From Paraspadella gotoi (Eukaryota; Animalia; Chaetognatha), in assembly GCA_051294375.1 (NCBI GenBank), contig CM119265.1, positions 403,305 through 467,304 on the forward strand: DNA of 64,000 nt. The letters run 5' to 3'. The notes under the pieces were generated by a model. The model worked only from the letters and a program-made list of their open reading frames with translations. It had not been told where the DNA came from and did no database searches. The translations under genes and the position numbers were made by a program. This document shows, piece after piece, positions 26,921-29,900 of this stretch (positions within the stretch are counted from its first letter, which is position 1; every line of letters begins with the position of its first letter).

Positions 26921-29900
26921 GGAGGAGAGGAGGAGGAGAAAGGAGGAGGAGGAGGAGGAGAAAACGTGGTTGAATCATTTCGCCTCGCATTTGATCGTAG
27001 CGTTCGAGTCGATGGAGCTGGGTGACGAGTTCTGACGCCGGGGCGACGGCCCGGCGGAGGAGGCGACGGAGGCGGCGATGGCGTGCGTGGCGGAGAGGCG
27101 TTGCCGGAAATGGCGTCGTCGGCTTCATAAGCGGGTTTTAAGCGGGAAATCGACACGTTTTCGTTGCCTCGACCTGGGATCGCGATTCTGAACGTTAGTT
27201 GATCACGAGATATGACGCGATACGGACCCAGGTAAGGCGCTGATAATGACGAGGCCACGCCCCCGCGTCGAACGAATACGTGGGAGGCGTGGCTTAGAGC
27301 GTTAGGGAGGTGGATTTGAGGTTGACGGTGAGTCGTTGTCGGGGCTGGCTGGAGGCGCGATACTTCTAGTTGAAGGTTAGCGAGCGTACGACGCCGCTGT
27401 TGACGTTCGGCGGCGTCACTTCCGGTTTGAGTCGATAAAAGGTCTCCGGGTACTGCAATTGCTTCGCCGTAGACCAAATCTGCTGGCGAGGCGCCTACGT
27501 CGGGTTTAAGCGTCGTTCGAATGGCTAACAGGGCGCAGGGGAGGCGCCAGTACCAATCTCCTCGAGTATCAGCGCCTAGAGCTATTAGTGCTTCTTTTAA
27601 TCGGCGATGAAATCGCTCGACTAATCCGTTAGATTGGGGGTGATAAGCTGTTGTGAGATTGTGAGTAATTCCCCATGAGGCTAGAAGTTGTCGCCAAGTT
27701 GATGAGAGGAATTGAGAGCCTCGATCCGTTGTGATGGTGGCCGGGACGCCGAATGAGGCTATCCAGCCATGGACGAGAGCATCGGCGACGGTTTTGGCTG
27801 CTATATCCTTCATTGGGATGGCGGCGGGCCATCGCGTAAATCTGTCGACTACAGTGAGGATATAGTTGAAGCCGTTGGAGAGGGGTAAAGTCACAATGTC
27901 TACGTGGATATGATTAAAGCGACGTTCTGGGAGCTCGAAGGTGCCGATTTCCGGGATTGTATTCCGCGTCACCTTCGCCCGTTGACAGTCTTGGCACTCT
28001 CGTGCCCACTTCGAGACGTCGGCTCTCATTGATGGCCAAACGAATTTTTCTGAGATCGTTTGTCGCGTCCGTTCGACTCCAGGGTGGCCGAGATTGTGGA
28101 TAGTCTCGAAGATGCGGCGGCGCCACGCAAAAGGAACGAAGGGGCGTGGCGGGCCGTTGCTGACGTCGGCGATGATCGTAGTAGTGCCGAGTGGGATTTG
28201 GCGAAATCTCAATCCAGATGTCGAGTCGCTCGTGATGCGCTGGAACTCGGCGTCGAGTGGTTGATCGGTCGCCATCTTTTCGATGTCGATGCCGTGCTGA
28301 AGGATCGAGTGGACGATTTGATCGAGGTGTTGACGTTTCTCTTCCGGGACTTCTTTTGATATTGAAGCGACAATCGGGGGAGGTGAGGGAGCGGGGGCAG
28401 AGAAAGAAGGGAAGAGAGGTTGTGGAGTGGGTGAGGGAGGGGGAGAGGAGGGAAGGGGAATTTGTTCCGGTTCCTTCTCGGCGTTAGGTCGGGAGAGGGA
28501 GTCGGCGACGACGTTGGCCTTCCCTGCCAAATATTGTATGTCGGTTGTATACTCCGCGATACCTGCTAATTGGTAGGTTTGTCTCGCTGTGTGTGGTTCA
28601 GTTTTTTTGGCGAGAGCGGGAATTAATGATTTATGGTCAGTGAAAAGTGTAAATTGGCGGCCTTCAATCATCATTTTAAAATGTCGAATTGCTCGCCAAG
28701 CGGCGAGCAGCTCGCGATCAAAGGGTGGCCACATTTGCTGGTTTTTTTGTAATTTTGCCGAGAAAAAGGCCAAGGGTTCCCAACCCTTCGGCCCTTTTTG
28801 TTCCAGCACCGCTCCAATTGCTGTGTTCGACGCGTCAGATGTAATTGCCAATGAGGCGCCGGGACGTGGGTGGCACAACATTGTGGCTTGTGCTAATGCG
28901 TTTTTAATGGCCTCGAAAGATTTTTGGCATTCGAGAGTCCAGTTCAATATGCGTGGCCTCGATTTCGACTTAAGGGCCTCGAATAATGGGTATAAGTGGT
29001 GCGCTGACCTCGGGATAAAGCGCCTGTAGTAGTTGACGAGGCCTAAGAATCTTTGTAACTCCTTAATGGATGTTGGAGGCGTTGTTTTGTTTATGACGGC
29101 GACTCTGTCCGGTAATGGCGAGATGCCGTTGGCGTCGACTCGATATCCAAGGAACTCGAGTTCTGATTTACCTAGAACGCACTTCTGTCTATTGACGACG
29201 AGTCCATTCTGGTGAAGCGTCTCGAACACTTGACGGAGGTGCTGCTCATGTTCGGCGTGGGTCTCGGAGGCGACCAAGATGTCGTCGATATATACGAAGA
29301 CGAACGGCAGGCCATCCAGGATTTCGTCCATCAGGCGTTGAAAATCCTGACCTGCGTTCTTGAGTCCGAATGGCGTGCGCGGGAAGACGTATAGTCCAAA
29401 AGGCGTGATGACGCCCGTTTTGGCGACGTCTTCTTCCGCCACGGGTATTTGATGATACCCTTTCAAGAGATCAATTTTGCTGAACACCTTTTTTCCGCTG
29501 AGGTTGGCGTTGAAGTCATTTAGAGTCTTGACAGGGTATTTGTCATCGATAGTAGCGTTATTAAGTCGTCTAAAGTCTCCACAAACTCTGTATCCTCCAT
29601 CGGGCTTGTTCACGACGAGGAGAGGCGACGCCCACTCACTTTTAGCGCGGCGAGCGATGCCGAGGTCGCAGAGTTTGTCTAGTTCTTTTTTAGCCACCTC
29701 TAATTTGTCGGGGGCTAGACGACGGGCTCTTGACTGCACTGGCCGGCCTGTTGTTGGTATATAGTGCTTGACTCCATGTTTGGGCTCGGTTGGCTGAAAA
29801 GAGGGTGTGCAAAGGTTGTGATAAGCGTCAAGAAGTTTATAGTATGGATCATCAGCTTGGTGTAAAAAATTTACTCGAATGGGTTTTTGTTTGTTTGCCT

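What the first reader, a model, noticed from the sequence alone, without database searches (positions are those of the whole stretch)
26995..27060. Conserved basic motif PGRRxG(V/I)RTR(H/Q)PA in an extended integrase tail: candidate targeting determinant
Seen: after the GPY/F module, E6 encodes PGRRPGVRTRHPAPSTRTL. E4 (18265-18320, one indel corrected) gives [19 protein letters not shown]2 (6020-6085, several indels corrected) gives AGVRTRQPAPTVKNL. The flanking tail is Pro/Ser-rich and unalignable, and no chromodomain is evident. Known: integrase C-terminal motifs direct Ty1, Ty5 and chromovirus targeting by binding host factors. Inference: a short linear motif that may bind telomeric DNA or a shelterin-type protein.
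Basis: partly seen in the sequence, partly recalled or inferred. Interest (0 to 1): 0.75.

Follow-up and report, generated by a model that had tools for sequence, protein, structure and literature searches.

The report
Integrase tail motif of telomere-nesting retrotransposons
A group of jumping genes that sit inside telomere repeats carries a short, strongly conserved arginine- and proline-rich tag on the end of its insertion enzyme; the tag likely helps the enzyme grip chromosomal DNA, but whether it is what steers these elements to telomeres is untested.

Summary
E6 encodes it in frame in an intact integrase. E4 holds a significant remnant across one frame change; E2's reading is marginal. 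Those outgroup tails carry, at matching distances from the GPY/F module, a canonical AT-hook (17/52) and a basic TRSGR motif (37/52), so the motif likely is this lineage's version of a generic basic chromatin/DNA tether. The tail is not unalignable: a second conserved terminal motif (138/182) lies in E6 in another frame. The window's elements are inserted in TTAGGG repeats in one orientation and one phase, and sequencing-run contigs show a telomeric junction for E6. Telomere-specific role of the motif: about 20%.

The parts
26992..27072 (-). Motif 1 of the E6 integrase tail (proline run, PGRRPG, RTR, then R.TL/TR-S); the finding, slightly wider than given
   Evidence: in frame in pol; profile from relatives iE 2.3e-10; no secondary structure, pLDDT 45-67 by 10-residue block over residues 291-350
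26776..30507 (-). E6 pol ORF, 1243 aa: protease, RT, RNase H, integrase (H2C2, core, GPY/F module), tail
   Evidence: fold like PFV and Ty3 integrases, E 1e-19 and 1e-15
27127..27228 (-). GPY/F module from GPY to RLKPAY, the anchor used for all offsets
   Evidence: beta-strands in the model; SH3_Tf2-1 below cut-off in relatives
26895..26970 (-). Low-complexity C-rich stretch within which the tail's reading frame is broken in this assembly; real or assembly error is unresolved
   Evidence: contigs match without gaps on either side but this stretch was skipped as a repeat
26547..26696 (-). Motif 2 (terminal FFS.P..FS.R ... SYAAVL..L) of the E6 tail, in a second frame (open 27137-26505)
   Evidence: helix with pLDDT 80 in an intact relative
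18263..18320 (-). E4 remnant of motif 1, split over two frames, no proline run
6020..6085 (-). E2 possible remnant of motif 1; only GVRT reads in one frame; marginal
12948..13061 (-). E3 weak trace of motif 2
   Evidence: iE 0.13
30276..31379 (-). E6 gag with CX2HX9CX3C signature
31697..32123 (-). E6 5' LTR, 427 bases, followed by primer-binding site; joined to telomeric repeats
32123..42284 (.). 10-kb telomeric repeat array, G-rich strand running towards coordinate 1
2762..16940 (.). Four telomeric tracts between elements (2762-2950, 3801-4211, 11443-11560, 16826-16940), each joined to LTR ends in the same phase

Best explanation
The motif is a lineage-wide short linear motif in the disordered integrase tail that likely acts as a basic tether, holding the integration complex on chromosomal DNA or nucleosomes, rather than as the sole address for telomeres. 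Shown: it is conserved as protein, sits 20-50 residues after the GPY/F module, has no predicted fold, and fills the two positions where more distant CsRn1-type integrases carry a canonical AT-hook and a TRSGR basic motif. Inferred: its G-R-R/P-P half is a remodelled AT-hook-like minor-groove or backbone contact and its R.TR half a remodelled TRSGR arm; the base-exact choice of site (4-base duplication GGGT, one phase of TTAGGG) would be read mainly by the catalytic core and GPY/F module at the target, while the tail (motif 1 and the terminal helix, motif 2) raises local concentration and may set the single orientation.
For: Conservation: GR[RP]P 150/182, PGR[RP]PG.RT[RI] 78/182, R.TR[SQ] 79/182 lineage tails; composition-shuffled tails give at most 6, 0 and 5 hits. 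In the set chosen by RT alone PGR[RP]P 74/108. Pair identity 0.75 in the motif against 0.29-0.31 in flanking tail and 0.60 in the preceding 150 integrase residues (55 proteins, 600 pairs; partly circular, the set was chosen by the motif core). Position: outgroup AT-hook in 17/52, GRP at median offset 21, lineage GR[RP]P at 26.5; outgroup TRSGR-type in 37/52 at offset 46, lineage R.TR[SQ] at 44; a second outgroup set gives RGR[PQ] 10/104, TRSGR-type 40/104. Outgroup elements with these generic motifs are not telomeric: 0 of 43 loci with 2 kb or more after pol, 6 of them AT-hook bearers. Disorder. Precedent for tail tethers: MLV integrase tail-BET (PMC8149907, passages), Ty5-Sir4 (PMC4700185, passages); AT-hook RGR core in the minor groove (PMC11354804, passages).
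Against: The canonical RGR core is lost: 3/182 lineage tails, so DNA binding is not implied by sequence alone. Homology to the AT-hook is positional only; in the tree the AT-hook bearers are not the lineage's sister group, a TRSGR-only group lies between (support 0.83, root arbitrary). The motif does track the one clade that holds all telomeric elements, and is absent from all non-telomeric outgroups seen, which fits a telomere-specific role equally. No binding was tested or modelled.
Confidence: 0.5

Rival explanations
1. The motif is the telomere-targeting determinant: a remodelled AT-hook-like arm that reads TTAGGG duplex DNA, or a ligand for a telomere-bound protein, gained once at the base of a lineage that is telomere-specific throughout.
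For: E2/E4 and E6, all telomeric, span the basal split of the 207-member clade, and what they share is the PGRR.G[VI]..R core, not the proline run. Full motif 0/52 outgroup tails; 0/43 long-flank outgroup loci telomeric. Same orientation and phase at the junctions; only a telomeric loose end is listed at the E6 LTR 3' junction, in 2 of 4 runs, and no other flank. The AT-hook of SA1 is needed for telomere binding (PMC11354804, passage).
Against: One clade-level contrast; motif 2, tail length and core substitutions track the clade just as well. Flanks of lineage members outside this host unseen. Within the clade 79 of 207 have only the half motif and 33 none. L002 has PGRRPGIRTR and no telomeric repeat in 1517 bases after the polypurine tract, against LTRs of about 430-710 bases in the window (LTR end not located). 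The basal place of E2/E4 rests on partial, noisy sequences and support 0.755.
Confidence: 0.2
2. The motif is a proline-rich ligand (PPPPGRR) for a host GYF, WW, SH3 or OCRE-type domain, possibly switched by phosphorylation of the conserved S-P site; the host protein supplies the tether or nuclear transport.
For: Most conserved columns are P93 P78 S73 P93 P88 P76 P92 G R [RP] P (153 tails). CD2 PPPPGHR binds the CD2BP2 GYF domain and SmB PPPPG motifs bind GYF, WW and OCRE domains (PMC5127646, passages). The Ty5 targeting domain is phosphorylation-dependent (PMC4700185, passage).
Against: E4's remnant covers only the part after the proline run. The RTR and R.TR columns are as conserved as the prolines in the full-motif set and are not explained. 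Resemblance only.
Confidence: 0.17
3. The motif is a nuclear-import signal or an integrase-internal element (multimer contact, viral-DNA-end or RNA binding during packaging) with no part in target choice.
For: Arg-rich, disordered, at the C-terminus; variants drift into plain arginine runs in one sub-clade. General knowledge of integrase tails (recalled).
Against: Fixed spacing and invariant G, T and P columns exceed what a basic import signal needs; the models show no docking on the core, though with low pTM 0.32-0.58.
Confidence: 0.13

Closest known systems
CsRn1 clade of Ty3/Gypsy LTR retrotransposons (CsRn1, PwRn1, AgCR, Boudicca)
   Same: Gag CX2HX9CX3C, PR-RT-RH-IN order, GPY/F module, no chromodomain, no env, 4-base duplication, Trp-type primer site (features from PMC2582038 passages)
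   Different: Tail median 221 residues against 60 in outgroup CsRn1-type elements; two lineage-specific motifs; insertions in one phase of TTAGGG, whereas PMC2582038 reports no target preference for PwRn1/AgCR
AT-hook (HMGA type; SA1 telomeric AT-hook)
   Same: G-R-P or G-R-R-P flanked by Pro and Arg in a disordered tail, at the position where outgroup integrases have RRGRP
   Different: Arg before Gly is replaced by Pro in 92% and the core is mostly GRRP; canonical core in 3/182
Integrase-tail tethers: Ty5 targeting domain-Sir4; MLV integrase tail-BET ET domain
   Same: Short genus- or lineage-specific motif in a flexible C-terminal tail (PMC4700185, PMC8149907, passages)
   Different: No sequence likeness tested or seen; these bias integration to chromatin regions, not to one phase of a repeat; no partner known here
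Proline-rich ligands PPPPGHR (CD2) and PPPPG.R (SmB/SmN)
   Same: PPPPG followed by Arg (PMC5127646, passages)
   Different: Followed here by a conserved PG.RTR.P.P[TS].R.TR extension; proline run missing in E4
Telomere-specific non-LTR elements (HeT-A/TART/TAHRE of Drosophila; silkworm telomeric elements)
   Same: Head-to-tail arrays at chromosome ends (PMC4700185, passages)
   Different: These are non-LTR elements; the window's are LTR elements with a DDE integrase

Membership tests
CsRn1 clade (element E6) | Gag CX2HX9CX3C signature | tested here: met
   E6 and E1 gag match the pattern; feature from PMC2582038 passage
CsRn1 clade (element E6) | tRNA-Trp primer-binding site | tested here: inconclusive
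   TGGTGACCCCGAC follows the LTR; its match to tRNA-Trp is recalled, the paper's PBS figure (a TIFF supplement) was not read
CsRn1 clade (element E6) | 4-base target duplication | tested here: met
   5' flanks end in GGT/GGGT in 4 of 5 junctions, 3' flanks begin with GGG in 4 of 4 (GGGT in 2), and GGGT in contigs for E6; inside a repeat the length is the simplest reading, not the only one
CsRn1 clade (element E6) | GPY/F module, no chromodomain | tested here: met
CsRn1 clade (element E6) | Groups with named CsRn1 references in an RT tree | not tested
   no named reference sequences were available from the tools; the tree holds unnamed relatives only
Canonical AT-hook (motif 1) | R-G-R-P core | tested here: not met
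   3 of 182 lineage tails; E6 has PGRRP
Canonical AT-hook (motif 1) | Minor-groove binding to AT-rich DNA | not testable with these tools
   needs a binding assay; no solved structure matched the tail at E<=10
Integrase targeting determinant | Presence tracks the target site across independent lineages | tested here: inconclusive
   one clade-level contrast; lineage flanks unseen except L002
Integrase targeting determinant | Binds a host factor or the target DNA; loss changes targeting | not testable with these tools
   no host proteins or genome held
GYF/WW proline-rich ligand | PPPPG motif with flanking Arg | tested here: inconclusive
   present in most lineage tails, absent from the E4 remnant; binding untested

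The most novel reading that the evidence does not exclude
A large, undescribed lineage of LTR retrotransposons is telomere-specific across its hosts, inserting at one phase of TTAGGG, and this motif is a remodelled AT-hook that lets the integrase read telomeric DNA or dock on a telomere protein directly: a peptide-sized address for telomeres in a DDE integrase.
Probability: 0.2. Interest if true: 0.82.

Novelty: new variant of a known kind. Interest (0 to 1): 0.52.

Why it matters
Integrase tails are where LTR elements and retroviruses keep their targeting motifs. This lineage shows two undescribed tail motifs replacing the generic AT-hook and TRSGR arms of its relatives, in elements that insert at one base phase and one orientation in telomeric repeats. 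Our three literature searches on that theme listed no animal LTR element with such a target. Even as a generic tether the motif gives a defined peptide with which to ask how an integrase reaches telomeric chromatin; if it is the determinant, it would show how sequence-specific targeting arises from a non-specific DNA-binding arm.

Tried and rejected
No whole genome is held, so other copies and non-telomeric families of this host could not be mapped. Viral contigs: no relative (one unrelated pattern match, without the GPY/F module). Metagenome scan with E6 alone: none; with the alignment 79 loci, only 6 of the lineage, on short contigs. Prokaryote genome contigs: 37 loci, no lineage member with a tail and flank. 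Cluster look-ups gave no names or hosts. ESM Atlas gave no result. No solved structure and no Pfam family for either motif. No RNA holder listed on record: no statement on expression. Contigs could not resolve the frame break in the E6 tail. L002's LTR end could not be placed. No earlier findings. Papers: no hit for acidic patch + arginine anchor + integrase + retrotransposon or AT-hook + integrase + gypsy + retrotransposon + GPY; TelKA paper showed no telomeric-repeat targeting in the passages seen. Rejected: chance or composition; constraint from the overlapping frame or an RNA element, since synonymous codons differ freely; chromodomain; an acidic-patch 'arginine anchor' reading of TRSGR/R.TR is recalled only and was folded into the tether explanation. 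No complex prediction was sent: host eukaryotic partners are not available to that tool.

Full report
Setting. The first 32 kb of the window is a head-to-tail array of Ty3/Gypsy LTR elements, all on the minus strand, separated by telomeric tracts at 2762-2950, 3801-4211, 11443-11560 and 16826-16940 and bounded by a 10-kb telomeric array at 32123-42284. The G-rich strand runs towards coordinate 1, so by inference the elements lie on the chromosome-end side of the long array. No whole genome is held. E6 has a gag with CX2HX9CX3C and a 1243-aa pol with protease, RT, RNase H and integrase; its integrase model matches PFV and Ty3 integrases. These fit the CsRn1 clade as described in PMC2582038 (passages seen, supplements not read); no named reference was available for a tree.

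Observation. E6 encodes PPSPPPPGRRPGVRTRHPAPSTRTLRS in frame at 27072-26992, and contigs of three DNA runs cover it without gaps (one may be the source sample). A profile made from 80 relatives scores it at iE 2.3e-10 among 3983 six-frame peptides of the window, next best 0.14. E4 and E2 lie in noisy sequence. A frame-aware search, breaks read as X, gives E4 28 bits with one frame change, 0 of 300 shuffles as high, best of 60 control stretches 18.3, and 0/300 at four penalties. E2 gives only GVRT in one frame: 26/300, then 9, 2, 2 and 0 of 300 as the penalty falls.

How wide the motif is. A search with the tail returned 152 proteins, 120 listed; a search with RT/RNase H alone listed another 120, 87 of them new. 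Pooling both with 5 lineage loci gave 203 anchored tails, 182 after removing near-duplicates: GR[RP]P 150, PGR[RP]PG.RT[RI] 78, R.TR[SQ] 79, exact pattern 6; shuffled tails reach at most 6, 0 and 5 for the three patterns tested. Identity between pairs is 0.75 in the motif, about 0.30 in the tail around it and 0.60 in the 150 integrase residues before it (55 proteins; partly circular). Between E6 and L002, 13 of 17 shared residues use different codons, so the constraint is on protein. Models show no secondary structure in the motif.

A second motif. Relatives end in FFS.P...FS..RRP[DN]V..L..I...HL (its RP[DN]V/SY part in 138 of 182), modelled as a short helix with pLDDT 80 in P0321. E6 has it in another frame at 26696-26547 (iE 9.3e-5), E3 a weak trace. 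The break lies in the C-rich stretch 26895-26970, which the contigs did not resolve.

What outgroups carry. The metagenome scan kept the best 80 of 494 confirmed matches (79 loci): 6 of the lineage, the rest more distant (median 44% in the integrase). Of 68 anchored outgroup tails, 52 remained after de-duplication and a length filter: median length 60 against 221; canonical AT-hook core in 17 (GRP at offset 21 from the module's end; lineage GR[RP]P at 26.5); TRSGR-type motif in 37 (offset 46; lineage R.TR[SQ] at 44); full motif in 0. The profile search of 50% representatives gave 104 tails under 52% identity: RGR[PQ] 10, TRSGR-type 40, full motif 2, the two being short fragments that I take, untested, for lineage members. 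The two halves of motif 1 thus stand where relatives have generic basic arms. Against descent from the AT-hook: the RGR core, which PMC11354804 (passages) names as the minor-groove contact, is in 3 of 182 lineage tails, and in the tree a TRSGR-only group lies between the lineage and the AT-hook bearers.

Telomere targeting. At the junctions the 5' flank ends in GGT before the LTR's TG in 4 of 5 cases (the mini-element is ambiguous) and the 3' flank starts with GGG in 4 of 4, GGGT in 2: one phase, one orientation, a 4-base duplication by the simplest reading. Laid on the E6 LTR, contigs of 2 of 4 runs show a telomeric loose end at the 3' junction and no run lists another flank there (contigs drop rare variants and human-like records are filtered). 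Targeting of these families is well supported.

Does the motif track it? Among 103 loci with the module, 43 have 2 kb or more after pol; none has three tandem units of eight telomere types tried and none has the motif; 6 have an AT-hook (not de-duplicated, many from one assembly, other telomere types would be missed). The 207 lineage sequences form one clade (support 0.95), with E2+E4 sister to the other 205 (0.755; partial, noisy sequences; arbitrary root). But this is a single contrast that motif 2, tail length and core residues share; 79 of 207 keep only half the motif and 33 none; and the only motif-bearing relative with downstream DNA, L002, has no telomeric repeat in 1517 bases after its polypurine tract, longer than the window's LTRs of about 430-710 bases, though its LTR end could not be placed. 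Further scans found no lineage member with flanks.

Mechanism. Most likely (0.5) the motif is a basic tether for DNA or nucleosomes, the lineage's replacement for AT-hook plus TRSGR; base-exact site choice would come from the core and GPY/F module. Shown: conservation, position, disorder, phase of insertion. Inferred: binding and division of labour. Rivals: true telomere determinant (0.2; SA1's AT-hook is needed for telomere binding, PMC11354804 passage; Ty5-Sir4, PMC4700185 passages; MLV tail-BET, PMC8149907 passages); proline-rich ligand of a GYF/WW-type domain (0.17; PMC5127646 passages; E4 lacks the proline run); import signal or internal role (0.13). The likeness of TRSGR to nucleosome acidic-patch anchors is recalled and comes from no call.

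Novelty. Searches for CsRn1 with telomeres (4 papers), for Gypsy elements targeting telomeric repeats (2 and 3 papers), for AT-hooks in Gypsy integrases (none, 14 listed, by title and abstract about retroviral cofactors and other topics) and for CsRn1 integrase C-terminal motifs (6 papers; passages of two read) showed no description of either motif or of such elements; other listed papers were seen as listings only, the library lacks most subscription journals and repeat databases, and no supplements were read. Integrase-tail tethers are a known kind; this is a new variant, made more interesting by the host elements' phase-exact telomeric insertion. Interest 0.52; novel case probability 0.2, interest 0.82.

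Noticed in passing
window 2762-32123 (LTR junctions): LTR elements of at least four families are inserted in TTAGGG repeats in one orientation and one phase with an apparent GGGT duplication; this is arguably more striking than the motif itself.
   Followed up: partly
window 26547-26696 (-), 12948-13061 (-): Second conserved terminal motif of the integrase tail, predicted short helix, kept in 138 of 182 lineage tails; an equal candidate for a host-protein contact.
   Followed up: partly
window ~2640-2715, ~17450-17550, ~31915-31990; L002 ~2330-2410: tRNA-like stretches with a polymerase III B-box lie antisense inside the LTRs of E1 and E6 and after the polypurine tract of L002, with a weaker one in E4. 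Default ARAGORN and Rfam do not call them; relaxed ARAGORN calls only the E1 one. Contigs show another LTR family with a different tRNA-like stretch at the same place.
   Followed up: partly
window 2950-3800 (-): An 850-base non-coding mini-element: two similar GC-rich LTR-like halves with a polypurine tract between, flanked by telomeric repeats; likely a non-autonomous passenger.
   Followed up: no
window ~23277 and ~26030: E4/E5 and E5/E6 abut through an LTR and primer site without telomeric repeats between; E5 is truncated and the E5/E6 LTR is mostly in an assembly gap.
   Followed up: no
L008, L012-L014, L017, L037, L062, L077 and others: Many unnamed CsRn1-type integrases end in one to three canonical AT-hooks and a TRSGR.V..P.R[FY] motif; one search found no paper on this.
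   Followed up: partly
L081-L114: Animal-type LTR retrotransposons occur in contigs filed under bacterial and archaeal metagenome-assembled genomes, likely host contamination.
   Followed up: no
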